From: Candidatus Heimdallarchaeota archaeon
GTDB taxonomy: Archaea > Asgardarchaeota > Heimdallarchaeia > Heimdallarchaeales > DAOWED01
Assembly (NCBI GenBank): GCA_030638685.1
Contig: DAOWED010000075.1
Coordinates: 1-17,688 of the forward strand
Reading direction: 5' to 3'
DNA length: 17,688 nt
A program made the translations under genes and the position numbers. Each line of letters starts with the position of its first letter. Positions within the stretch are counted from its first letter, which is position 1. Shown in pieces: positions 30 to 17,199 of this stretch. A model generated the notes under the pieces. The model did no database searches and was not told the DNA's origin. It saw nothing but the letters and a program-made list of their open reading frames with translations.

Positions 30-710
30 TTGGTTTCAAAATTCAAGAAAGATTCAACACCAGATGACATGAAATTAGTAAAAGGAACAATTGGAGACTT
101 AGGAGAAGTAGTTGTCGTGATGTCAGATATTCTTGAAAGCTTCGATGTTGAGTATGAGAATGAAGTTGAAAATAAAAGAAATGCTGTCGATAAAGTATGG
201 GTAAAACTACCTAAGTTTATGCAAAGCAGACATCTTAAAGAACAAACAAGAGAAAGGGAAAGAATTAGTAAAGGGAAGAAACAATTAACCACCGTTAAAT
301 CATCATTAAGTAATATGATGACGGTGATTGAGCAATCACCAGATAATTTTGAAAAAGTAGCAGAAACATATGTTGAAGTTGTTTCACCTGCAGGAATAAC
401 TGATGAGAAGGCAGAGGAAATCGAAGAAAAGATAAATGCAATGCAGCTTGAATTTGTTCAATATATGGAAGAAATGCAGAAACAGTTACTTCTACTAAGA
501 ACAACAATGGATCATATGGCTCAAGATTTAGGAGAACATGGAGTTAAAATAGATCATATTACTGAAAAAGTAGAAGAAGTATCAACTAAGCTAGATTCTG
601 TCCAAGAAAAACTTAAGGAGATAAGTAGAAAACTTACAAAAAACAGACTTTTGATGTTTGCATTAGCAACAGGAGTAACTATAGTACTACTCAAAGCAAT
701 ACTGCCATAA
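30..710 (+). CDS. Coiled-coil tail-anchored membrane protein, SNARE-like; may be 5'-truncated because the frame stays open to the window edge
   Basis: Frame of 226 aa from a TTG. C-terminus is LRTTMDHMAQDLGEHGVKIDHITEKVEEVSTKLDSVQEKLKEISRKLTKNR followed by the hydrophobic segment LLMFALATGVTIVLLKAILP and stop. The heptad segment resembles a t-SNARE motif by eye. Confidence 0.75.
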   Translation: MVSKFKKDSTPDDMKLVKGTIGDLGEVVVVMSDILESFDVEYENEVENKRNAVDKVWVKLPKFMQSRHLKEQTRERERISKGKKQLTTVKSSLSNMMTVIEQSPDNFEKVAETYVEVVSPAGITDEKAEEIEEKINAMQLEFVQYMEEMQKQLLLLRTTMDHMAQDLGEHGVKIDHITEKVEEVSTKLDSVQEKLKEISRKLTKNRLLMFALATGVTIVLLKAILP

Positions 711-738: not shown

Positions 739-2118
739 TTATTCAAAATCAACATGTTCTTTGTTGGCATGAGAAAAATCAATCGAGAGAAAATCAGACC
801 ATTGAGGAGTAGAATAAGTTTTTTTCTGTTTAGCCAGATCATATCTTGAGAAAGGCATTGTAAGATGTCTATGTGCTCCAATGGGAGGTAAATATCTTCC
901 TTTTTCAAGCGATCTAGATTCAAAAACGGGAACTTTGGTTGCAGAGGGATCTTTAATTTTACACTTTTTACACTTGTAACCGGCATTAACACCATCACTT
1001 TCCATTCTTTTATTACAGGAGGGACAAGGTGGATTAACCAATCGAGAAAAGGGTGCAACTTCAATAACATCTAATCGTTCAATATTAAAAGTGGGTAATT
1101 CACTAGGGGAAACACCTCTAATACTTCCACCTACAATTAATCGGTCATCAGGTCGAAGTTCTTTGACGGTAGATCGAAATGATTTAGAAGGTTCATAAGC
1201 CAATGCATGAAATTGAGAACCATCACTTGATCGTTCTAAAGTAAGAATAGTGTGACCTCCAGCAATAATATCGGGTTCATTAACAACTTTTGCTTCAATT
1301 AAACTCACTTCGTAAGGCTCAAGTGAGGGGAAAGCATTCACTAAATGTTCATCGGTTCCTTGATTAGTTCTAAAAACACACCAACCTTCAATTTTTTCCA
1401 GTTGTTTAATCACAGAATTGGCTGAAATAAGGAGATTAGCAGACTCTCCTCTGATTCCGTAAAGAACAGGATCGGGTCCATTTGGTACGGAAGCAATTCG
1501 ACCAGTATCAGAATCATATGAAGAAAAGGTTTGAAAAGAAGAATCATCGAGTCTAATAAAAGATTCACGGTCAATTCTTCGCTTAGTACCTCTATTATTA
1601 GCGATCCGGTACGCCAATAATTCATAAGTAAAGTCATTTTTTAGCTCATTGCCAATAGCTGCTAATGAGCCGATAAGACCTTGACCGGTTCCCTTGAAAG
1701 AATAGTAAACAGAGGGGTGATCAAGAAGAGAAATAGTTTCATCAATCGTTAAAACCTTAATTAACGCCCGTTGAGCAAAAGAAGATAACTCAGAGCCTAA
1801 TTCACCAACCAAAAGAATAAAACCGGGGTTAGTCATTTCATGATCAGCAGTGCGATTGAAAAGCCAAGTACTGAGTTCGTTATGAATTTTTTCAAAATTA
1901 AGAGAGGAGGGGACCAAAAAAGTTAGAGCCACACTTCCATTACCTCGCGTCTTAAAAGGAACATTAGGGTTGTTTCGGATCAAGCGGGGGAAATCGAGGG
2001 GCTTCCAGCCCTTTTCTTTGAGAATAGAGAGAAGTGAAAAAGCAAGATGAGTTGTACAGTTACCAAGAGGACTATCAGTGTCATCAAAACCAAGAGTAAC
2101 TTTCACAAACTGAGACAA
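739..2118 (-). CDS. tiaS: tRNA(Ile2) 2-agmatinylcytidine synthetase TiaS
   Basis: N-terminal VTLGFDDTDSPLGNCTTHLAF and internal SFKGTGQGLIGSLAAIG, followed by an OB-fold-like region and a zinc ribbon (CPSCNKRMESDGVNAGYKCKKCK). TTG start preceded by GGTGGT. Confidence 0.93.
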   Translation of the reverse strand: MSQFVKVTLGFDDTDSPLGNCTTHLAFSLLSILKEKGWKPLDFPRLIRNNPNVPFKTRGNGSVALTFLVPSSLNFEKIHNELSTWLFNRTADHEMTNPGFILLVGELGSELSSFAQRALIKVLTIDETISLLDHPSVYYSFKGTGQGLIGSLAAIGNELKNDFTYELLAYRIANNRGTKRRIDRESFIRLDDSSFQTFSSYDSDTGRIASVPNGPDPVLYGIRGESANLLISANSVIKQLEKIEGWCVFRTNQGTDEHLVNAFPSLEPYEVSLIEAKVVNEPDIIAGGHTILTLERSSDGSQFHALAYEPSKSFRSTVKELRPDDRLIVGGSIRGVSPSELPTFNIERLDVIEVAPFSRLVNPPCPSCNKRMESDGVNAGYKCKKCKIKDPSATKVPVFESRSLEKGRYLPPIGAHRHLTMPFSRYDLAKQKKTYSTPQWSDFLSIDFSHANKEHVDFE

Positions 2119-3243: not shown

Positions 3244-3966
3244 CTACTTACCAAACAATCTTGAAAAGCGTTTCTTGACTGCTTGACGCTTCAGATAAGC
3301 AATTGCTTCTGTAGGATTAAGTTCTTTTGGACAAGCTTCACCGCAATTAAACGCCGTGTGACATCGCCATACACCATGATTACCATTGATTAACCCTATT
3401 CTTTCATCGGTCATTGCATCACGGCTATCTCTTACAAACCTAAAAGCCTTCAGAAGAGCTGCTGGTCCGAGATATTCTGGATCAGTCCATACTGTTACAC
3501 ACGAAGAGTAACATGAACCACACAAGATACAATCAATTGAGTTGCCCATTAGTTCTTTTTCCTCAGAAGACTGGATCACTTCTTTTTCCAGCGATTTCTT
3601 CAGGATTACAAAAGGATTCACTGCTCTGATCTTTGAAAAGAATGGCTCCATGTCTATTACTAGGTCTTTTATTATTGGATAGAAAGGTAGAGGTTCTATT
3701 TTTATTGTACCAGTGTAGAAGGATATCTGTTCTTGACAAGCTAGTACATATTTCCCATTAACGTATGCTGCATCAGATCCACATATACCGGCTCTGCATG
3801 CAAATCTAAAGGCTAAACTTCCATCCAAGTTTTCCATGATGTCGAATAATCCTTCAAGAAGAGTTTTACCCTTTTTACGATCCACTTTAAAGTCTTCCCA
3901 GTAGGAACCTTGTTCAGCGTTTTCGGGGTCAAATCTTTTAATTCTAAAAATTACTTGTTCACTCAT
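3244..3966 (-). CDS. sdhB: Succinate dehydrogenase/fumarate reductase iron-sulfur subunit (start likely internal to the tracked 3244..4005 ORF)
   Basis: [2Fe-2S] motif FRFACRAGICGSDAAYVNGKYVLAC, then CILCGSCYSSC and CHTAFNCGEACPKELNP. GGAGTGAT Shine-Dalgarno directly precedes ATG ATG AGT GAA, overlapping the sdhA stop. Confidence 0.93.
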   Translation of the reverse strand: MSEQVIFRIKRFDPENAEQGSYWEDFKVDRKKGKTLLEGLFDIMENLDGSLAFRFACRAGICGSDAAYVNGKYVLACQEQISFYTGTIKIEPLPFYPIIKDLVIDMEPFFSKIRAVNPFVILKKSLEKEVIQSSEEKELMGNSIDCILCGSCYSSCVTVWTDPEYLGPAALLKAFRFVRDSRDAMTDERIGLINGNHGVWRCHTAFNCGEACPKELNPTEAIAYLKRQAVKKRFSRLFGK

Positions 3967-3977
3967 CATTATCACTC

Positions 3978-5699
3978 CTAGTATTTTCTCTCCTCTGGTT
4001 CCCAAATTGAGAGGTCCACCTTTGAATATGATATTTTGCAGGTATCATTCTTGACATCGTAATGAGCCATGGTATGTTTCATGAACTTTTTGTCATTTCT
4101 TTTCATGAAGTCAGTTCTGCAATGTGAGCCTCTAAATTCTTCACGTTTGAGTGCTCCTTCAACGATGACTTCTGCTAAATGTAGTTGTCCACCAAGCATA
4201 TACAATCTGGCTAATTCCCAGTTATAGATTCTACCAGTATACTTGACCTTAATTTTCTTGTAGCGTTCCTTAAGGTCCTTAATAGTTTCTTGTGCTTTTG
4301 TTATGCCTTCCTTATTACGGAAAACACCTAGGTTCTTACTCAATACTTTTTGCATTTCAGCCATGAGTTTAAAGCCATCTTCTGACCCTTCACCATTGAA
4401 GAGATTTTGAATATTTGCTTCAACTTCATCTGCTTCTTTTTGGAGTACTTCTAATGCGTCATCATCCACTTTATTTGCTTCTACAAACTCAGAAGTTGAA
4501 ACACCTGAGATTTTACCAAAAACACAGCATTCGAGTAAACTGTTTCCTCCTAGACGATTAGCTCCATGAACAGAAATACAACTGCATTCACCTGCGGCAT
4601 ACAACCCCGTCATTTCAGATTCAGTCTTATCATTAACTGAAATTCCACCCATTGTATAGTGAGTAGAGGGTCTAATAGGTGCGGGTTCCTCTATCAAATC
4701 TGTTCCAGCAAAACGAATTGCAAGTTCTCTAACTTGAGGTAAGCGGCTTAGAATTTGTTCAGCAGGAAGATGAGTTAAGTCCAGTTCAACATAATCACCA
4801 TCGGGTCCACATCCTCTTCCTTCATTTATTTCAGTCTGGATTGATCGTGCAACAATATCTCGAGGAGCTAGTTCCATTTTATCAGCGGCATAATTTTTCA
4901 TGAAACGCTCTCCATCCTTGTTTCTTAGATAGCCACCTTCTCCTCTTGCTGCTTCTGAAAGAAGAACAGCATTTGTTGCCAAACCAGTTGGATGAAATTG
5001 TACAAATTCCATATCTTTCAGAGGTACACCTTTGAAGTAGGGCAATACAAAACCAAATCCACTATTATGCCAAGAATTAGTAGTGTCCTTGAACACTCTT
5101 CCGGCTCCTCCAACTGCAAAAATAACTGCAGATGCTTGGAAAATTTCTAACTTTCCAGTAATGAGATTTATTGCTACTACTCCTTTGATTTTATTCTCTT
5201 TTTCACCAATTGAAAGAACTATTCGGTCTTCATACATAGGAACTTCGTGGTATAAACATTGTTCATACAACCCCATCATTATTACAGCACCTGTTTTATC
5301 GGTTGAATAACAAGTTCGAGGATATCCTGCTCCACCAAAAGGTCTTTGAGCTATTTTTCCATCCTCTGTTCTTGAAAAGGGTATTCCCAGTTTATCAAGC
5401 TCAAGTATCCTTGGGATAGCTTGTTCTGTCATTGCCAGAACAGCTTTTTGATCAGCAAGATAATCAGATCCTTTTGTAGTATCAAATCCGTGTCTTTCAG
5501 CAGAATCATCTTCTGCTACATTAGCTAAAGCAGCATTGATTCCGCCTTGTGCAGCAGAACTATGAGAACGATATGCTTGAGTAATTGAAACGGTTGCTAC
5601 ATCTTTTCCTCTTTGAGCCGCTTCTACTGCGGCGGAAAGACCAGCCAGACCTGTTCCAACTATCAAAATATCATGTTTAAAGATTTCAACATCAGCCAT
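3978..5699 (-). CDS. sdhA: Succinate dehydrogenase/fumarate reductase flavoprotein subunit
   Basis: FAD-binding DILIVGTGLAGLSAAVEAA, covalent-FAD motif SHSSAAQGGINAAL, VQFHPTGL, HYTMGGI, and CISVHGANRLGGNSLLECCVFGK. Confidence 0.96.
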   Translation of the reverse strand: MADVEIFKHDILIVGTGLAGLSAAVEAAQRGKDVATVSITQAYRSHSSAAQGGINAALANVAEDDSAERHGFDTTKGSDYLADQKAVLAMTEQAIPRILELDKLGIPFSRTEDGKIAQRPFGGAGYPRTCYSTDKTGAVIMMGLYEQCLYHEVPMYEDRIVLSIGEKENKIKGVVAINLITGKLEIFQASAVIFAVGGAGRVFKDTTNSWHNSGFGFVLPYFKGVPLKDMEFVQFHPTGLATNAVLLSEAARGEGGYLRNKDGERFMKNYAADKMELAPRDIVARSIQTEINEGRGCGPDGDYVELDLTHLPAEQILSRLPQVRELAIRFAGTDLIEEPAPIRPSTHYTMGGISVNDKTESEMTGLYAAGECSCISVHGANRLGGNSLLECCVFGKISGVSTSEFVEANKVDDDALEVLQKEADEVEANIQNLFNGEGSEDGFKLMAEMQKVLSKNLGVFRNKEGITKAQETIKDLKERYKKIKVKYTGRIYNWELARLYMLGGQLHLAEVIVEGALKREEFRGSHCRTDFMKRNDKKFMKHTMAHYDVKNDTCKISYSKVDLSIWEPEERKY

Positions 5700-6422: not shown

Positions 6423-6926
6423 TCAATCTATATTTAATTCAAACACGTGATCAGCTAAACCTTTGATAGCAACTGAAAAACCGGGATCAAAACCGGCTAC
6501 AGCAACCTCTTTCCCTTTTTCCTTAAGTTTCATTATAATTGGTGAAATACGTGCATCTCTAGAACAGATTAAGGTTAAATCGGTTGTTCCTTTATGATAT
6601 TGCTCCAAAGCATGAATCCCCATAGTTAGAGAAAGATCCCCGTGTGAAACAATTGGAGTATAACCAGAGTTAACTACTGCATCCATTAAACCATTGGAAG
6701 CTTTCTGATCAAGGAAGACTTTCTTTTCAACGATGGCACCTAAGAAGTTGGCAACCTCATTAATATCCTCAAGTTTAACTCGATGTCCTTTTACTGTGCG
6801 TAATATATTAGGTCCATCTACAAAGATAACTATTTTTTTTTCTCTTTTAAATAGAGATTTTAGAGTAGTCCACCTGCTAGATAACGTAGGTGATTGATCG
6901 TCTTTTTCTAAATTCATTTTAATCAC
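6423..6926 (-). CDS. NYN-domain (LabA/DUF88-like, PIN-fold) putative ribonuclease; start possibly ATG at 6917
   Basis: KIVIFVDGPNILR (catalytic Asp near strand 1), VVNSGYTPIVSHGDLSLTMGIHALEQYHKGTTDLTLICSRDARISPIIMKLKEKGKEVAVAG. This is the typical NYN D/D/D layout. Confidence 0.85.
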   Translation of the reverse strand: MIKMNLEKDDQSPTLSSRWTTLKSLFKREKKIVIFVDGPNILRTVKGHRVKLEDINEVANFLGAIVEKKVFLDQKASNGLMDAVVNSGYTPIVSHGDLSLTMGIHALEQYHKGTTDLTLICSRDARISPIIMKLKEKGKEVAVAGFDPGFSVAIKGLADHVFELNID

Positions 6927-8865
6927 TAGTCGTTTCTGAAGCGCTTATCAAACTATCAGGAGGCGTCATTTGTTCGTTCAAACGAACTACCGTGGTATCC
7001 TCGAGAGTTTCTGTTGTCACAAAACCAAATAATTCTAATTCAGCTACTGACTTTCGGACAACAGCAGGATGCATGGTAAGCATACGAGCAATATCCTGTT
7101 CCTTTAATTCAGAACTCAGTCCGTGCAGAAGGAAAATAATCATGTATTTTTGATCATTAACAAGATAGTTTTGAAGATAGGAGCCGAGTTCTTCCAAATG
7201 AACCAATTCATTTTGGTAAGAAACGAGTTTTTGTTCTAACTCATCTTTAACCTCAACATTCATTGTAATTTTGCCTTCATATCCTGACAATTCCTCTTTT
7301 AGAGTTGTAAGTTCGGTTTCAAGAACGCTCTTTTCTTCAATCATCAGTTCATGTTTGGAAAGAGAAGAATTGAATTCATCTTGGATGGAAGTTTTTTCAG
7401 TGGAAACCGCATCATATTTTTCTTGTATTGCGTCTAATGAAGTAGTAAATTCCTCCTTTTCTTTAGCAAGAGAAGAATAGTCATTCTTTACTCGATTAAT
7501 TTCGCTTTCCGTTTCTGAGAGTGATGCCTTCAATTCGGTTAGTGAACTTTCATATTCAGCTTTTTGAGTTGTAGATTCCGACATAATGCGTTCTCTTTCA
7601 GAATCCCATTGGCTTTGAATCTTAGAAATTTCGGTTGGGAACACTTCTTCACTAACTGTTGATTCTGACTCCAAGGATTGAAGTTTTTCATGATAAATTT
7701 GATTTTGTGCATCCAAAGCAGTCTTCTCTGATTCTAATTGAGAATGGGTCTTTTCAAGTTCGGTTAATTTATTTTCCACTGAAGTTTTGACTTCTCTAAG
7801 CTCGGTTAACTCATCGTTCAATTTAGTTGTTTCTTGATCAAGATTAAGTAATCTTGTTTCTAAACCATTCTTTTCTGTAGAAACAGTTTTGTGAGCAGCT
7901 TCTAACTGAGTTAGTTTCTCATTCACTGAAATACTATCTGTTTCACTGCTCTCCATTCTTACTTTCACTTGTGAAAGCTCTAAGTTAAGAGTTCTAATCT
8001 CTTCATTCTTACTAACCATTTCATTTCTAACACTGAACTGTTCTTCCCTTGATTTTTCAAGTTCTTCTTGAAGTGATTTAAAAGCATCACTTTGCTCCTT
8101 ATACTGTTGACTGATTAATTCTCGTTCTCTATTGCTATAATCAGAAAGTTGATTCCTTAAGGTTTTTAGTTCTTCTTGTTGACGATCTATTGTTGCTTTA
8201 AAGCGGGAGATGTCATTTTGTGTATCATCAATGTGTGTCTCCCTATCACCTAAAGCTTCCTGCATCTCTTCTTGCTCAAGACGCATTTGCATCAAAGTTG
8301 CTCCAAGCTGCATATTTTGGCTTTCAAGCCTTTCAATTCCGGCTTCAAGATTAGTTATTTCTGAATTTTTGAGTCTATTTTCTTCACTCAAAGAATTCAT
8401 TTGGTCGACAAGATCCACGTTTTCAGTGGATAGATCAGAGACTGTTTCTGACTGTTCAACAAGAGAGGCTTGATATTGAGCTACTCGTGCTTCTGACAAA
8501 CTGCTTTCAACAGGAGATTGTGTTTGTAAACGTCGGAGTTCTTCTAAAAATTCAGCCTCTATAACGTTTCCTTGTGCTAGTCCTGTTTCAATTCCCTCGC
8601 GTATCTTAGAACCTGATTCTGTCTCAATTTTGAGATAAACGGTTCTTAAGAAATGTATCAAACCATCCTTAAATCGGTTTGAAATTTCAGCAATTTCAGA
8701 GGCAGGATATTGTGAAACTCCAGGAGTTAGTGAGCTTGCTCTTAATTCCTCAGCTTTAGCTCTTAACTGGTCTTCATGCAATAATCTTTGATCTCTCATA
8801 TCTTTCAAATAGTCAAGAATTACTTCTCGAATCACTGTTACTCTGATTTCTTGAAAATGTTCCAT
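6919..8865 (-). CDS. Long coiled-coil protein with C-terminal winged-helix-like domain
   Basis: 648 aa. Extended heptad-rich Glu/Lys/Leu/Ser region across the middle ~450 aa. C-terminal MIIFLLHGLSSELKEQDIARMLTMHPAVVRKSVAELELFGFVTTETLEDTTVVRLNE resembles a wHTH. The stop overlaps the NYN ORF start. Confidence 0.8.
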   Translation of the reverse strand: MEHFQEIRVTVIREVILDYLKDMRDQRLLHEDQLRAKAEELRASSLTPGVSQYPASEIAEISNRFKDGLIHFLRTVYLKIETESGSKIREGIETGLAQGNVIEAEFLEELRRLQTQSPVESSLSEARVAQYQASLVEQSETVSDLSTENVDLVDQMNSLSEENRLKNSEITNLEAGIERLESQNMQLGATLMQMRLEQEEMQEALGDRETHIDDTQNDISRFKATIDRQQEELKTLRNQLSDYSNRERELISQQYKEQSDAFKSLQEELEKSREEQFSVRNEMVSKNEEIRTLNLELSQVKVRMESSETDSISVNEKLTQLEAAHKTVSTEKNGLETRLLNLDQETTKLNDELTELREVKTSVENKLTELEKTHSQLESEKTALDAQNQIYHEKLQSLESESTVSEEVFPTEISKIQSQWDSERERIMSESTTQKAEYESSLTELKASLSETESEINRVKNDYSSLAKEKEEFTTSLDAIQEKYDAVSTEKTSIQDEFNSSLSKHELMIEEKSVLETELTTLKEELSGYEGKITMNVEVKDELEQKLVSYQNELVHLEELGSYLQNYLVNDQKYMIIFLLHGLSSELKEQDIARMLTMHPAVVRKSVAELELFGFVTTETLEDTTVVRLNEQMTPPDSLISASETTSD

Positions 8866-12311: not shown

Positions 12312-13997
12312 ATGGAATCATCGAATAAAAACGCCCTCAGAAAACAGATACTTATCTTCATCCTTCTTCTTGTTAATATCATAGTAAGGCTCCTTCCAAC
12401 TTTGAGTTCAAGAACTCTCTGGGGAGTGGATGCTTGGGACTATATTTATTATATTAAACAATCAATTGAGGGTTCCCAGATTATTTCTCCGGAGTTACAT
12501 GTTCCCGGTTTCTATATTCTGATGACATCCTACTGTCATATTGTTGACATCGATCCTGAAATAGCTTACCTTTTTCTTCCTCAATTAGTTCTAGGCCTTC
12601 TTACTTTAGAGATGTTCATTCTTGCAAGAGTTCTAACCAAAGATGATTCAGCTGGAATAATAGCTCTCCTTTTAACTAGTAGCGGTGGAATTTATGTTCT
12701 TAGAACAATGCTTGTTATTCCAGAATCTTTTGGTTTAAGTTTAATCCCCCTTGGTTTATGGTTATACTGGAAAATGCTTACTATTAGAACTAAAGAGTGG
12801 TCAATTTCATTTCTTATGATCGGTACTACTATTGTTTCTATGCATCATTTATCTGGAGGAGTTTTTCTATGTGCGATAAATTTCATTACTCTTTGGTTCA
12901 GTCTTAACAAGAACCATCGAAAAGATATTTGGGCAAAGGTTATCTTCTTGAACGTTGTAACGTTGATTATTTGGTCTATTACAAGCAAAAACTATCCTTT
13001 TATCGTTGCTCAAAGAGGGTCTCAGTATTTTCTAATTCTAGCACTAGTGATGATTGGTATTTCCATCATTCTTTTTTCAACTAGAGCTATGAAGCCTAGA
13101 GTAATCAAATTAATTCAGTCCGAACTCGTTCAACAATCTTGGTCTTACGTTCTATTCATAACAATTATTCTTCTTTCTTTATGGGTTGGCCTGCGAGCTG
13201 ATTTATCTTTCAAAGTTATAGCTTCATTTCTTCCTGTATCTCTTTTTATTCCCTTTACTCTTGTATGTATCCAAAAAGATTCATTTCAACTTCAACATGC
13301 TAGATCGTTTTTCCTTGGGATGATTTTTTCATATTTCATACTCTTTTCATTAATTGCCTTTAATCCATCAATACAGACACTATTAGGCAGATATGCAGAA
13401 TTCTTGATACAGATTGCTGTTCTTGGAACAGCTATGGGAGCTTCTATAAAACTGAAAGATAAGAACGGAAGGAGAAAATTATATGGATTCACTTTAGCAA
13501 TATTAATGATTACCAACTTTCCTCTTGCATATCCTGATCCCGACATTTGGATGGGTACAACTTTCAATTACTATAGTGAAGAATTAGAGGCAGCAGAATG
13601 GCTTGAAATAAGGATTGATGATCTTGGACTTGATCCAGAAATATCTATAATTGATACGGATAATCGTTTGGGAGTGATGCTTAGGGGGCACGTGGGATTA
13701 AATAGCAGTTGTGGAGAGCCAAGTGATAGCGAACTTGCTTACCTTATTCGTGAAAAACTATCTTTAATTGAAATTGCTTCATACCACTTTTCAAATCATT
13801 CTTTTATTTTCCTTTCACAAGTAATAGTGGATTCGACTTTTGCTATGGGTAAATTTGGGCATGGTCGAACTTTTTCAACAAGTGATATTGCACTTGAAGT
13901 AAGTTCCTACTTTATTTATGCCTTAAATCAACACCCTCAACTTGAAAAAGTGCTAGACTTAGGTAGCGTTTGGATATGGGAGATTAACAATAGCTGA
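12312..13997 (+). CDS. Polytopic membrane protein, GT-C-glycosyltransferase-like
   Basis: 561 aa with about 10 or more hydrophobic segments. An Asp-containing first loop (SSRTLWGVDAWDYIYYIKQSIE...PELHVPGFYILM) recalls GT-C/PMT-type enzymes. ATG start. Confidence 0.6.
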   Translation: MESSNKNALRKQILIFILLLVNIIVRLLPTLSSRTLWGVDAWDYIYYIKQSIEGSQIISPELHVPGFYILMTSYCHIVDIDPEIAYLFLPQLVLGLLTLEMFILARVLTKDDSAGIIALLLTSSGGIYVLRTMLVIPESFGLSLIPLGLWLYWKMLTIRTKEWSISFLMIGTTIVSMHHLSGGVFLCAINFITLWFSLNKNHRKDIWAKVIFLNVVTLIIWSITSKNYPFIVAQRGSQYFLILALVMIGISIILFSTRAMKPRVIKLIQSELVQQSWSYVLFITIILLSLWVGLRADLSFKVIASFLPVSLFIPFTLVCIQKDSFQLQHARSFFLGMIFSYFILFSLIAFNPSIQTLLGRYAEFLIQIAVLGTAMGASIKLKDKNGRRKLYGFTLAILMITNFPLAYPDPDIWMGTTFNYYSEELEAAEWLEIRIDDLGLDPEISIIDTDNRLGVMLRGHVGLNSSCGEPSDSELAYLIREKLSLIEIASYHFSNHSFIFLSQVIVDSTFAMGKFGHGRTFSTSDIALEVSSYFIYALNQHPQLEKVLDLGSVWIWEINNS

Positions 13998-16378: not shown

Positions 16379-16945
16379 TTATGGAACAACTAAACGATAA
16401 ATAATAGATTCTTCAGCAAATACACTGCTTCTGACTATTCTTACAACATCTCCAGCCAACGCATGAATGGTTTTTATTGCAGGATCGTTTTCAAAAATTT
16501 TGGGTAAGTCTCTAACTCCAATGTTGTATCTTGTAGTCATTTCTTCGATTTCTTCTGAAGTTAGTATTTCATGAAGTGGAACTAAGTCATGCTTGAATAA
16601 ATCAAAAATAGGGTGAGAAGATGATAAAATTTCTATTCCTGTACTTTCAGCTTCCTTTTTAGCATAATGAGTAAATCGCCTTCTGCTTACTAATACTGCA
16701 GAACTTAATCCTTCCTTCTCGAGTTTTTCGTTTACTTCCCTTACAAAAGAAATACCTACAACTTCTTTCATAGGTATTCTAACAATCATTTTTTCAGAAG
16801 TTTTATCGGAATCAGCATAGATATCTAGTGATTTTTCGGTCTCTTCATAAGAAGTGACTGTGTAACCTCTTCTTTTAAGAATATCAGTTATACCTCTTTT
16901 GTATCTTTCAATTTCGTCTTCTGTGAGTCTTTGATTACTACTCAT
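16379..16945 (-). CDS. rpoH: DNA-directed RNA polymerase subunit H (Rpb5-like) with additional N-terminal domain
   Basis: C-terminus HPIFDLFKHDLVPLHEILTSEEIEEMTTRYNIGVRDLPKIFENDPAIKTIHALAGDVVRIVRSSVFAEESIIYRLVVP is a classic RpoH/Rpb5 domain. It is preceded by ~110 extra residues. Confidence 0.92.
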   Translation of the reverse strand: MSSNQRLTEDEIERYKRGITDILKRRGYTVTSYEETEKSLDIYADSDKTSEKMIVRIPMKEVVGISFVREVNEKLEKEGLSSAVLVSRRRFTHYAKKEAESTGIEILSSSHPIFDLFKHDLVPLHEILTSEEIEEMTTRYNIGVRDLPKIFENDPAIKTIHALAGDVVRIVRSSVFAEESIIYRLVVP

Positions 16946-17199
16946 TTGCTATCCTCATATTGGGTTTTCAATATCAATTTAATAAGCTATTGTATCATTG
17001 ACTTGTAAAGATTCAATTTACGCTTTTCGCTTTGATTACATAAATTTCTGTTGTGAGAGATTATGCATAATTTACTAAAACTTGAGCATTTAGTAGACTA
17101 TGATACTTTGTGTTTAACTAGATTGCTTAACCTCGTCTTACTTCACAGAAGAAGCCTTCATCATAGCACGTTAACAAACAAATGTGTCAAGTTAATTAG

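What the first reader, a model, noticed from the sequence alone, without database searches (positions are those of the whole stretch)
16379..16945. Two-domain Rpb5: archaeal RpoH carrying a eukaryote-like N-terminal domain
Typical archaeal RpoH is ~80 aa and matches only the C-terminal domain of eukaryotic Rpb5. This protein is 188 aa. Its first ~110 residues (ERYKRGITDILKRRGYTVTSYE...MIVRIPMKEVVGISFVREVNEKLEKEGLSSAVLVSRRRFTHYAKKEAE...) resemble the eukaryotic Rpb5 N-domain (helix with RGY.VT, then F.P...VGI..I......E.I..A.IV....T..AK). The linker then runs into HDLVPLHEIL as in eukaryotes (EHELVPEHVV). This could be an ancestor of the eukaryotic jaw-domain extension or independent domain recruitment.
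Basis: partly seen in the sequence, partly recalled or inferred. Interest (0 to 1): 0.88.

Follow-up and report, generated by a model that had tools for sequence, protein, structure and literature searches.

The report
Archaeal Rpo5 with eukaryote-type jaw domain
This archaeal gene encodes RNA polymerase subunit H/Rpo5 fused to an extra N-terminal domain that matches the "jaw" domain of eukaryotic Rpb5, a domain textbooks call eukaryote-specific, and the same two-domain form turns out to be common in Bathyarchaeia and several Asgard lineages.

Summary
Window 16379-16945 (minus strand) encodes a 188-aa protein. Residues 114-187 are a bona fide RpoH/Rpb5_C domain. Residues ~9-108 form a catalytically dead Mrr-type PD-(D/E)XK domain.

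With no C-domain in the query, a profile of archaeal N-domains finds only eukaryotic RPB5 among PDB sequences (E 3e-9). Against a eukaryotic N-domain profile, hhalign gives E 2e-17 over 99 columns. The AlphaFold model (pLDDT 93) superposes on whole RPB5 chains (TM 0.82-0.84). The junction length, the RGY motif and the T..AK motif are shared. Pfam's Rpb5_N cut-off is missed because that model omits the conserved half of the module.

This is not a Heimdall or Asgard oddity. Dozens of sequence clusters carry the architecture, in Bathyarchaeia, Kariarchaeaceae, Hodarchaeales and a MAG labelled Thorarchaeota. Some have tandem N-domains or paralogues, and some are truncated by gene callers.

I found no paper describing it; the literature calls the jaw eukaryote-specific.

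Still open:
- whether these genomes also keep a short rpoH;
- which archaeal lineage eukaryotic Rpb5 descends from (the tree is unresolved);
- whether the protein actually sits in the polymerase.

The parts
16379..16945 (-). Complete CDS (188 codons plus stop) of a two-domain RNA polymerase subunit Rpo5/H
   Evidence: ORF; domain hits; purifying selection, dN/dS 0.11 over the whole gene; AlphaFold2 model pLDDT 93.4, pTM 0.79
16616..16945 (-). N-terminal module (residues 1-110): an inactivated Mrr-type PD-(D/E)XK fold, homologous to the eukaryotic Rpb5 jaw module
   Evidence: Mrr_cat 34.8 bits and NA-iREase1 38.8 bits, both above cut-off. N-only profile hits RPB5 chains at E 3e-9. hhalign E 2e-17. 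N-only model pLDDT 94.4 with alpha-beta-beta-beta-alpha-beta-alpha-beta topology; its best PDB matches are RPB5 chains, TMq 0.64-0.73
16862..16870 (-). R26-G27-Y28 motif at the end of helix 1, equivalent to the eukaryotic invariant (D)RGY motif
   Evidence: R is conserved in 26/27 archaeal and 40/40 eukaryote-type sequences in the joint alignment. The yeast rpb5-R26E mutation is lethal (PMC1802627)
16772..16786 (-). Strand beta3 (I54-V-R-I-P58), occupying the place of the Mrr catalytic (Q/E)xK motif; the nuclease site is degenerate
   Evidence: The alignment to EcoKMrr puts Q219-A-K221 opposite archaeal R/W-x-(V/P/I). Column counts: position 56 is R/W/L and position 58 is never K
16658..16672 (-). 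T92-H-Y-A-K96 motif at the start of helix 3, equivalent to eukaryotic T-P-S-A-K
   Evidence: T in 24/27 archaeal and 31/40 eukaryote-type; A in 23/27 and 33/40; K/R in 24/27 and 30/40
16592..16621 (-). Hinge between the modules (about residues 109-118, SSHPIFDLFK)
   Evidence: The spacing from E105 to H119 is 13 residues in 21/27 archaeal and 40/40 eukaryote-type proteins. pLDDT dips to 82 here
16382..16606 (-). C-terminal assembly module (residues 114-188), the RpoH/Rpb5_C domain that binds the largest subunit
   Evidence: PF01191 E 5.7e-23; NF007129 88.2 bits; M. jannaschii subunit H E 1e-18. H119, P123, D154, R172 and R184 correspond to yeast H147, P151, D182, R200 and R212
16952..16956 (-). 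GAGGA Shine-Dalgarno-like motif, 7-11 nt upstream of the ATG (putative)
   Evidence: Read from the sequence; identical in the homologous locus L003; function not tested
16976..16986 (-). A/T-rich box CTTATTAAATT, 31-41 nt upstream of the ATG; possible TATA-like promoter element (putative)
   Evidence: Conserved within the block 'caatagcttattaaatt' between the window and L003 while the flanks diverge; function not tested

Best explanation
The gene encodes the Rpo5 (subunit H) component of the archaeal RNA polymerase in a full-length, Rpb5-like two-module form. SHOWN: the C-terminal module (residues 114-188) is an orthodox RpoH domain. It keeps all five residues that in yeast Rpb5 clasp the largest subunit. 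The N-terminal module (residues ~9-108) is a Mrr-family PD-(D/E)XK fold that has lost the (Q/E)xK catalytic motif. It is homologous, over its whole length, to the N-terminal 'jaw' module of eukaryotic Rpb5. The junction length and the predicted mutual orientation of the two modules are the same as in Rpb5. INFERRED: the C-module anchors the protein on Rpo1, as in all archaeal and eukaryotic polymerases. The N-module then sits at the far, lower end of the DNA cleft, where the eukaryotic jaw lies along downstream DNA 15-20 nt ahead of the bubble. There it would act as a non-catalytic DNA-proximal wall and a docking surface for factors. In Sulfolobales, Rpo13 partly occupies this position. INFERRED: the fusion of an inactivated Mrr-like domain to RpoH happened once, in archaea. 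Eukaryotic (and giant-virus) Rpb5 descends from such a protein, after gaining a ~15-residue helical insertion after strand 1 and ~4 residues after the TPSAK helix.
For: C-module: PF01191 E 5.7e-23; NCBIfam RpoH equivalog above cut-off; 46% identity and TMt 0.91 to T. kodakarensis Rpo5; H119/P123/D154/R184 invariant and R172 in 24/27 archaeal sequences (residue roles from PMC1802627). N-module homology to the Rpb5 jaw: the N-only profile finds 11 RPB5 chains and no nuclease in PDB sequences. hhalign gives E 2e-17 over 99 columns, and 41/41 eukaryotic N-domains score above all decoys. Genuine EcoKMrr scores only 12.6 bits against the same profile, versus 14-52 bits for eukaryotic jaws. The top N-only structural matches are RPB5. 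Whole-protein geometry: TM 0.82-0.84, rmsd 2.6-2.9 A to RPB5 in Pol I/II/III, and 0.74-0.79 to giant-virus Rpb5. Single fusion event: identical spacings E105-H119 (13), G64-T92 (27) and H119-R184 (64) in both groups. Dead nuclease. Real, selected gene: dN/dS about 0.1 in both modules. Family breadth: 39 hits at E<=1e-30; the 120 best hits of the N-only profile are all two-domain RpoH; 39 loci in reference genomes. Function of the jaw and of Rpo13: PMC1802627 and PMC2675907.
Against: Pfam's own Rpb5_N model is not passed (13.6-15.6 bits vs 27; only 5/31 archaeal N-domains hit it even weakly). That model stops before the best-conserved half of the module. Structurally, the N-module alone is only marginally closer to RPB5 (TMq 0.64-0.73) than to the Mrr-like AF1548 (0.61). 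No evidence here shows the protein in a polymerase. The gene is never next to rpoB in the seven loci whose called genes I read, and I could not exclude a second, short rpoH in the same genome. The distance tree does not place eukaryotes next to any particular archaeal lineage. The AlphaFold network has seen Rpb5 structures in training, so the predicted interdomain geometry is not fully independent evidence.
Confidence: 0.78

Rival explanations
1. Convergent architecture: archaea and the eukaryotic stem each independently fused a Mrr-like PD-(D/E)XK domain to the N-terminus of RpoH. The two N-modules would then be related only at superfamily level.
For: Mrr_cat and NA-iREase1 score better than Pfam Rpb5_N on the archaeal proteins. 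Mrr-like domains are abundant and mobile. The N-only model is almost as close to AF1548 and MspJI as to RPB5. Eukaryote-type sequences form a separate clade in 60/60 bootstraps.
Against: In like-for-like tests the archaeal N profile scores eukaryotic jaws at 14-52 bits over the full domain. EcoKMrr scores 12.6 bits over half of it, and no PDB nuclease reaches E<=10. The domain order, the 13-residue junction, the internal spacings, the RGY and T..AK motifs and the loss of the same catalytic motif are all shared. The interdomain geometry is shared.
Confidence: 0.1
2. Paralogue, not the polymerase's own subunit: the genome keeps a canonical short rpoH beside rpoB. This two-domain protein would then be an alternative or regulatory Rpo5 variant, comparable to plant NRPD5/NRPE5 or trypanosome RPB5z, or a non-polymerase protein.
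For: The gene lies between a BpsA-like gene and cofD, not beside rpoB, and none of the other six loci whose genes I read has it beside rpoB. Paralogy exists within the family: tandem copies in L048, two loci in MAG QDN_3. A 2026 paper lists a Bathyarchaeota Rpo5 accession two numbers away from Rpo1, i.e. in the canonical operon.
Against: No short rpoH was found in any fetched locus. The best-scoring 'short' candidate (P0064, 80 aa) is a mis-called start of a 186-aa two-domain gene. The C-module passes the RpoH equivalog cut-off and keeps every Rpb1-binding residue. The same paper lists Helarchaeota and Thorarchaeota Rpo5 accessions far from Rpo1, so a dispersed rpoH looks normal in Asgard archaea.
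Confidence: 0.15
3. Horizontal transfer of a eukaryotic or giant-virus Rpb5 gene into archaea.
For: Giant-virus Rpb5 models superpose well on the window protein (TMq 0.74-0.79). The tree is unrooted, so its direction is formally open.
Against: The C-module is of archaeal type: it is closer to M. jannaschii and T. kodakarensis subunit H than to any Rpb5. The hinge carries the archaeal P.F(D/N)IF.H signature rather than E.EL.VNIT.H. Archaeal N-modules lack both eukaryotic insertions and are more Mrr-like than eukaryotic ones. The archaeal family is deep, with dozens of 50%-identity clusters in two phyla.
Confidence: 0.04
4. Active nuclease or defence function: the Mrr-like domain still cuts DNA, and the RpoH domain merely tethers it.
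For: Mrr_cat passes Pfam's cut-off. The first acidic residue (D41) is kept in 14/34 members, with E in a further 6.
Against: The (Q/E)xK motif is replaced by R-x-P in the window protein, and the lysine position is never K across the family. The best Pfam hit is a family defined as inactive restriction endonuclease. The genomic context holds no restriction or defence genes.
Confidence: 0.03

Closest known systems
Eukaryotic Rpb5 / RPABC1 (jaw module plus assembly module; Pfam PF03871 + PF01191), shared by Pol I, II and III
   Same: Same two-module order, same 13-residue junction and same predicted mutual orientation (TM 0.82-0.84). N-modules are homologous (hhalign E 2e-17). Shared RGY and T..AK motifs, the same loss of the nuclease motif, and the same five Rpb1-binding residues in the C-module.
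   Different: The archaeal N-module is ~20 residues shorter: it lacks the ~15-residue helical insertion after strand 1 and ~4 residues after the TPSAK helix. It scores below Pfam's PF03871 cut-off and retains stronger similarity to Mrr_cat. The hinge motif is P.F(D/N)IF.H rather than E.EL.VNIT.H. The C-module is of archaeal type.
Canonical archaeal Rpo5 / subunit H (74-84 aa; e.g. 1hmj, 4qiw_H, 2waq_H)
   Same: The C-module is an orthologue-grade match (E 1e-18 to M. jannaschii H; TMt 0.91, rmsd 1.0 A, 46% identity to T. kodakarensis Rpo5).
   Different: The canonical form has no N-terminal module at all. The literature states that archaeal RpoH lacks it (PMC3906176, PMC6690254, PMC2675907). 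From my own knowledge, rpoH classically lies immediately upstream of rpoB; here it does not.
Mrr-family type IV restriction endonuclease catalytic domain (Pfam Mrr_cat PF04471; EcoKMrr, MspJI, AF1548/1y88) and NA-iREase1 (PF22722)
   Same: Same alpha-beta-beta-beta-alpha-beta core and the same VG(V/R)..(V/L) and T..A motifs. Pfam cut-offs are passed. Structural TMq is 0.57-0.61.
   Different: The catalytic (Q/E)xK is lost. There is no N-terminal DNA-recognition domain. The domain is fused to an RNAP subunit domain instead of standing in a restriction or NACHT context. EcoKMrr scores only 12.6 bits against the archaeal N profile.
Giant-virus (Nucleocytoviricota) Rpb5 homologues, e.g. ASFV D205R (8q3b_E), Marseillevirus and Pithovirus RPB5
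   Same: Two-module architecture with comparable overall fold (TMq 0.72-0.79).
   Different: The viral proteins carry the eukaryote-type hinge and C-module signatures and lower sequence identity (14-25%).
Rpo13 of Sulfolobales
   Same: Occupies part of the space next to Rpo5 that the eukaryotic jaw fills, and lies near downstream DNA (PMC2675907). It may therefore be a functional analogue of the N-module.
   Different: It is an unrelated helix-turn-helix protein encoded by a separate gene.

Membership tests
RpoH / Rpo5 (Rpb5 C-terminal assembly domain) | Match to PF01191 above the gathering score and to the NCBIfam RpoH equivalog NF007129 above its cut-off | tested here: met
   PF01191 80.9 bits vs 23.5; NF007129 88.2 bits vs 83
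RpoH / Rpo5 (Rpb5 C-terminal assembly domain) | Quasi-invariant residues that bind the largest subunit (yeast H147, P151, D182, R200, R212) | tested here: met
   Window H119, P123, D154, R172 and R184 are all present. They are invariant or nearly so in 27 archaeal two-domain and 40 eukaryote-type sequences (residue list from PMC1802627)
RpoH / Rpo5 (Rpb5 C-terminal assembly domain) | Physical presence as a stoichiometric subunit of the RNA polymerase | not testable with these tools
   Needs RNAP purification, mass spectrometry or cryo-EM
RpoH / Rpo5 (Rpb5 C-terminal assembly domain) | Gene position at the head of the rpoH-rpoB-rpoA operon (typical of the family, not strictly defining) | tested here: not met
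   The neighbours are a BpsA_C-domain gene and cofD, a dus-like gene and cofC. The other two-domain genes I examined are also away from rpoB
Eukaryotic-type two-module Rpb5 (Rpb5_N + Rpb5_C) | Match to Pfam Rpb5_N (PF03871) above the gathering score | tested here: not met
   13.6-15.6 bits vs 27, covering only residues 14-46; 5 of 31 archaeal N-domains hit it at E<=1. The model covers only the first ~90 residues of the eukaryotic module
Eukaryotic-type two-module Rpb5 (Rpb5_N + Rpb5_C) | Full-length homology of the N-module to the Rpb5 jaw, independent of the C-module | tested here: met
   N-only profile vs PDB: 11 RPB5 chains at E 3e-9 to 1e-3 and nothing else significant. hhalign probability 98.9%, E 2e-17, 99 columns; 41/41 above decoys
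Eukaryotic-type two-module Rpb5 (Rpb5_N + Rpb5_C) | Bipartite fold with the jaw packed against the assembly domain as in Pol I/II/III structures | tested here: met
   Predicted model only: TMq 0.82-0.84, rmsd 2.6-2.9 A over ~200 columns to RPB5 chains
Eukaryotic-type two-module Rpb5 (Rpb5_N + Rpb5_C) | Invariant (D)RGY motif on helix 1 and the T-P-S-A-K motif | tested here: met
   R26-G-Y and T92-H-Y-A-K96 are aligned and conserved in both groups
Eukaryotic-type two-module Rpb5 (Rpb5_N + Rpb5_C) | Eukaryote-type helical insertion between strand 1 and strand 2, and the E.EL.VNIT.H hinge | tested here: not met
   Y28-G64 spacing is 34-40 in archaea vs 50-56 in eukaryote-type sequences. The hinge is P.F(D/N)IF.H
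Mrr_cat / PD-(D/E)XK nucleases | Pfam Mrr_cat above the gathering score and the alpha-beta-beta-beta-alpha-beta core fold | tested here: met
   33.1-34.8 bits vs 21; 30/31 family members hit it; topology; 1y88, MspJI and AspBHI among the structural hits
Mrr_cat / PD-(D/E)XK nucleases | Catalytic D ... (D/E/Q)xK residues | tested here: not met
   D41 is kept in the window protein, but Q219-x-K221 of EcoKMrr aligns with R56-x-P58, and the K position is never K in 34 family members
NA-iREase1 (NACHT-associated inactive restriction endonuclease) | Pfam PF22722 above the gathering score | tested here: met
   37.1-38.8 bits vs 27; 28/31 members hit it
NA-iREase1 (NACHT-associated inactive restriction endonuclease) | Association with a NACHT NTPase module | tested here: not met
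   The only other domain in the protein is Rpb5_C. No NACHT domain appears among the neighbours

The most novel reading that the evidence does not exclude
The Rpb5 jaw module is not a eukaryotic invention. A full-length, two-module Rpo5 already existed in archaea before eukaryogenesis and was inherited by eukaryotes, so Rpb5_N should be removed from the list of eukaryote-specific polymerase features. In the stronger version, the two-module form was ancestral to the Asgard + TACK (Thermoproteota-related) archaea, and the 80-aa subunit H of model archaea is a secondary reduction. Paralogues and tandem-jaw variants would then hint at specialised polymerase forms in archaea.
Probability: 0.6. Interest if true: 0.8.

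Novelty: new variant of a known kind. Interest (0 to 1): 0.7.

Why it matters
Reviews and structure papers state that archaeal Rpo5 lacks the jaw and that the jaw is eukaryote-specific (PMC1802627, PMC2675907, PMC3906176, PMC6690254; PMC3424549 lists Rpb5_N as 'Eukaryota'). The Asgard eukaryotic-signature-protein (ESP) catalogue of Eme et al. 2023 does not list it.

A widespread archaeal Rpo5 with a homologous jaw has four consequences:
- It moves the origin of one more 'eukaryotic' polymerase feature into archaea.
- It gives a sequence intermediate that links Rpb5_N to Mrr-type nucleases and so explains where the jaw came from.
- It offers a tractable test of what the jaw does in a simpler polymerase, for example by yeast Rpb5/RpoH chimera complementation or by isolating RNAP from cultured Asgard archaea.
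- It warns that gene callers truncate these genes to the expected ~80-90 aa, which may be why the form has been overlooked.

Tried and rejected
1. The search for related loci on genome contigs with the N-only alignment (A2) and with the diverse full-length alignment (A3) failed for lack of a conserved stretch. The tighter alignment A1 worked, but its patterns found Bathyarchaeia only and no Heimdall-group genome. Asgard taxonomy therefore rests on a few source names.

3. My last homology search, with the window C-domain alone, was meant to reveal a separate short RpoH in Heimdall-group genomes. It returned no candidates. The second-copy question remains open.

4. The second and third cluster-member runs gave source names for only 4 of 20 clusters, and organism names for only 2 of them (P0017 and P0020).

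5. A neighbour-joining tree (176 columns, Kimura distances, 60 bootstraps) separates eukaryote-type from archaeal sequences. It gives no stable sister lineage (best 18/60) and had saturated distances. I rejected it as evidence for or against a Heimdall-specific link. A first attempt timed out.

6. Net charge of the N-module as a proxy for DNA binding was uninformative: 0 for the window protein, and -7 to +18 across the family.

7. I considered the 'RGY' arginine as a derived character shared by archaeal and eukaryotic jaws but absent from Mrr. EcoKMrr has R-L-G-Y at that place, so I give the motif little weight as a synapomorphy.

8. I searched ~465 kb of fetched loci for stand-alone N-like domains. 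Only one was found (L034), so there is no evidence for a split-gene precursor.
Full report
OBSERVATION. The window has an ATG-initiated ORF at 16379-16945 on the minus strand. Residues 114-186 match Pfam RNA_pol_Rpb5_C (E 5.7e-23). Residues 114-187 match the NCBIfam RpoH equivalog above its curated cut-off (88.2 vs 83 bits). The best single PDB sequence match is M. jannaschii subunit H (E 1e-18). The additional ~110 N-terminal residues are genuine coding sequence. Against the 90%-identical homologue on a 68-kb contig labelled Kariarchaeaceae (P0002, L003), dN/dS is 0.095 for codons 1-110 and 0.12 for codons 111-188. The start codon, a GAGGA motif 7-11 nt upstream and an A/T-rich box 31-41 nt upstream are conserved between the two loci. 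Source names place the window in a Heimdall-group Asgard archaeon ('Candidatus Heimdallarchaeota archaeon', 'Candidatus Kariarchaeaceae archaeon').

WHAT THE N-DOMAIN IS. Pfam places residues 16-108 in Mrr_cat (33-35 bits, cut-off 21) and in NA-iREase1, an 'inactive restriction endonuclease' family (37-39 bits, cut-off 27). Pfam's Rpb5_N reaches only 13.6-15.6 bits (cut-off 27) over residues 14-46. It is not, for three reasons.

First, Rpb5_N is itself a PD-(D/E)XK-fold domain (PMC3424549). In my control, 28 of 40 eukaryote-type Rpb5 proteins also hit Mrr_cat weakly, and 24 of 40 hit NA-iREase1.

Second, Pfam's Rpb5_N model covers only about the first 90 residues of the eukaryotic module. It therefore leaves out the best-conserved half (VGV...GI.V...T..AK...IE).

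Third, like-for-like tests without any C-domain show a specific relationship:
- A profile of 31 archaeal N-domains searched against all PDB sequences returns 11 eukaryotic RPB5 chains (E 3e-9 to 1e-3; the Arabidopsis NRPB5A alignment spans profile 8-94). It returns no Mrr-type nuclease even at E<=10.
- The same kind of profile scores all 41 eukaryote-type N-domains (14-52 bits) above the best of 1,230 shuffled decoys (9.2 bits). The reverse search puts 22 of 34 archaeal N-domains above the best decoy.
- hhalign between the two N-domain profiles gives probability 98.9% and E 2e-17 over 99 columns.
- Genuine E. coli Mrr scores 12.6 bits against the archaeal profile, and over half the domain only.

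STRUCTURE. AlphaFold2 was run on an archaeal-only alignment with no templates. It gives a confident model (pLDDT 93.4, pTM 0.79) with an alpha-beta-beta-beta-alpha-beta-alpha-beta N-module and the RpoH fold. Foldseek ranks 36 RPB5 chains from Pol I, II, III, IV and V and from ASFV first. TM is 0.82-0.84 (query-normalised) and rmsd 2.6-2.9 A over ~200 columns, so both modules and their mutual orientation superpose. Short archaeal Rpo5 chains cover only the C-half (TMq 0.38). The first nuclease, AF1548 (1y88), appears at rank 50. An N-module-only model (pLDDT 94.4) again finds RPB5 chains first (TMq 0.64-0.73). AF1548 follows closely (rank 6, TMq 0.61), then MspJI, AspBHI and EcoT38I. Structurally, then, this is a Mrr-type fold only marginally nearest to the Rpb5 jaw. 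The sequence profiles are what make the link specific. Giant-virus Rpb5 models also superpose as whole proteins (TMq 0.74-0.79).

INACTIVE NUCLEASE. The alignment to EcoKMrr puts its catalytic Q219-x-K221 opposite window R56-x-P58. Across 34 family members, position 56 is mostly R or W and position 58 is never K. The upstream acidic residue (D41) is kept in only 14 members, with E in 6 more. Eukaryotic Rpb5 has F-F-P at the same place.

SAME FUSION IN ARCHAEA AND EUKARYOTES. I made a joint alignment of 27 archaeal two-domain and 40 eukaryote-type proteins.
- From the last N-module strand (E105) to the first invariant C-module residue (H119) there are 13 residues in 21/27 archaeal and 40/40 eukaryote-type sequences.
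- G64-T92 is 27 residues in 20/27 and 35/40.
- H119-R184 is 64 residues in 27/27 and 37/40.
- Eukaryotes differ by a ~15-residue insertion between strands 1 and 2 (Y28-G64: 34-40 vs 50-56) and by ~4 extra residues after the TPSAK helix.

Shared motifs include R26-G-Y. This is the eukaryotic invariant DRGY, and yeast R26E is lethal (PMC1802627). T92..A95-K96 corresponds to eukaryotic TPSAK. The five residues that bind Rpb1 in yeast (H147, P151, D182, R200, R212; PMC1802627) correspond to window H119, P123, D154, R172 and R184, and all are conserved. This favours one fusion event over convergent recruitment.

DISTRIBUTION. The protein is not an oddity of this genome.
- An exhaustive profile search of 1.84 billion representatives gives 39 hits at E<=1e-30. 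Dozens of 50%-identity clusters of 175-195 aa align over the whole profile. Eukaryote-type Rpb5 of 200-220 aa follow, aligned from profile position ~40.
- The 120 best hits to the N-only profile in the 5.8-billion-protein collection are all 160-201 aa proteins carrying PF01191 + Mrr_cat + NA-iREase1. Many are already named 'RNA polymerase subunit H' by their sources.
- Named members come from Kariarchaeaceae, 'Heimdallarchaeota', Hodarchaeales, a MAG labelled Thorarchaeota, and Bathyarchaeia.
- In GTDB species genomes, two peptide patterns alone found 39 loci. Of these, 36 are titled Bathyarchaeota or Bathyarchaeia, one is an uncultured archaeon, and two are in MAGs labelled as bacteria, which is probably mis-binning.
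- Variants exist. P0025 has three tandem N-modules before one C-module, and P0026 and P0044 each have at least two. L048 has two tandem two-domain paralogues. MAG QDN_3 has two loci. L042 holds a frameshifted copy.
- Gene callers sometimes truncate the gene. P0064 (80 aa) is really a 186-aa GTG-initiated ORF. A 91-aa NCBI entry clusters at 90% identity with the 189-aa P0020.

CONTEXT. In the window, the gene sits between a divergently transcribed gene with a BpsA_C domain and a co-directional run of cofD, a dus-like gene and cofC. This order is conserved in L003. None of the seven loci whose called genes I read puts the gene beside rpoB. A 2026 paper on Rpo6 and Rpo8 lists Helarchaeota and Thorarchaeota Rpo5 accessions far from Rpo1, but a Bathyarchaeota Rpo5 accession two numbers away from Rpo1. 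I could not establish whether any of these genomes also has a short rpoH. The one 'short' candidate I followed was an annotation artefact, and my last search for others returned nothing.

MECHANISM (inferred). The C-module should anchor on Rpo1 as in all solved archaeal and eukaryotic polymerases. In Pol II the jaw marks the far lower end of the DNA cleft, and it accounts for Rpb5-DNA contacts 15-20 nt ahead of the fork (PMC1802627). In Sulfolobus the absence of the jaw exposes a basic groove that Rpo13 partly fills (PMC2675907). The archaeal N-module most likely occupies that place as a non-catalytic wall along downstream DNA and as a factor-docking surface. None of this is shown here.

EVOLUTION. 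The archaeal N-module sits between Mrr_cat and Rpb5_N. It hits Mrr_cat more strongly than eukaryotic jaws do (best 2e-10 vs 2.4e-5), and it lacks the eukaryotic insertions. Its C-module and hinge are of archaeal type. This argues against transfer from eukaryotes or giant viruses. It fits descent of Rpb5 from an archaeal two-module Rpo5. A distance tree separates eukaryote-type from archaeal sequences in 60/60 bootstraps but does not resolve their archaeal sister (best 18/60). I therefore make no claim of a Heimdall-specific link, and the presence in Bathyarchaeia argues against an Asgard-only origin. The window protein's N-module is nevertheless among the three most eukaryote-like of the 34 tested (41.8 bits).

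NOVELTY. Eight full-text searches, and targeted reading, found no description of an archaeal Rpo5 with a jaw-like module. The papers that address the point say the opposite (PMC1802627, PMC2675907, PMC3906176, PMC6690254; PMC3424549 gives Rpb5_N as 'Eukaryota'). The Asgard eukaryotic-signature-protein (ESP) catalogue of Eme et al. 2023 lists RNAP A and RPB8 but not Rpb5. The library lacks most subscription journals, so prior mention elsewhere cannot be excluded. The domain combination is also visible in precomputed Pfam annotations. I classify the finding as a new variant of a known kind, with interest 0.7.

Noticed in passing
window 30-710 (+): A 226-aa ORF (TTG start) with a sub-threshold SNARE-domain hit (23.0 bits vs cut-off 26.8, residues 174-219), plus COG6_N and coiled-coil hits. 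It may be one of the SNARE-like proteins that, from memory, have been reported in Heimdallarchaeota; I did not check this.
   Followed up: no
window 6919-8865 (-) and 12312-13997 (+): Two large ORFs (648 and 561 aa) with no Pfam hit at E<=0.001. Both are conserved in position in the homologous Kariarchaeaceae contig L003 (648 and 560 aa).
   Followed up: no
P0008; L046 8001-8429: A different N-terminal elaboration of RpoH: a 142-aa protein with a SAP-like domain (SAP_new25 21.6 bits, below cut-off) in front of an Rpb5_C domain whose H.LVPLHEI motif resembles the window protein's. It is not next to rpoB.
   Followed up: partly
P0025 (481 aa), P0026 (436 aa), P0039, P0044: Rpo5 variants with two or three tandem N-modules in front of a single RpoH domain. 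P0025 has N-like domains at 34-107, 148-246 and 262-367. NCBI names this cluster 'RpoH/Rpb5 C-terminal domain-containing protein'.
   Followed up: partly
L048 8001-8564 and 8639-9193; L037 and L038 (MAG QDN_3): Two-domain rpoH paralogues within one genome: a tandem pair of 187 and 184 aa, and two separate loci in one Bathyarchaeota MAG. This recalls the Rpb5 paralogues of plants and trypanosomes.
   Followed up: partly
L034 3618-4190 (+): A 191-aa ORF with a stand-alone N-like (Mrr-like) domain (41.8 bits against the archaeal N profile), followed by a Cys-rich tail instead of an RpoH domain. It lies directly upstream of the two-domain rpoH in a Bathyarchaeota MAG.
   Followed up: no
L045 383-943; P0064; P0281: Gene callers truncate two-domain rpoH genes to the expected short length. 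P0064 (80 aa) is the C-terminal part of a 186-aa GTG-initiated ORF. A 91-aa NCBI 'subunit H' entry clusters at 90% identity with the 189-aa P0020.
   Followed up: yes
L019 and L041: Bathyarchaeia-type two-domain rpoH genes sit on contigs binned into MAGs labelled Krumholzibacteriaceae and Patescibacteria. This is most likely binning contamination.
   Followed up: no
L034, L037, L038: A Bathyarchaeial subgroup replaces the near-universal H.LVP.HE motif at the start of the C-module with H.(L/Y)VSP(A/T)E. This shifts the proline that in yeast (P151) contacts Rpb1.
   Followed up: no
window 739-2118 (-), 3244-5699 (-): Other neighbours identified: a TiaS (tRNA-Ile2 agmatidine synthetase) homologue, and an SdhA/SdhB-like flavoprotein plus Fe-S subunit pair. 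No tRNA genes occur in the window.
   Followed up: no
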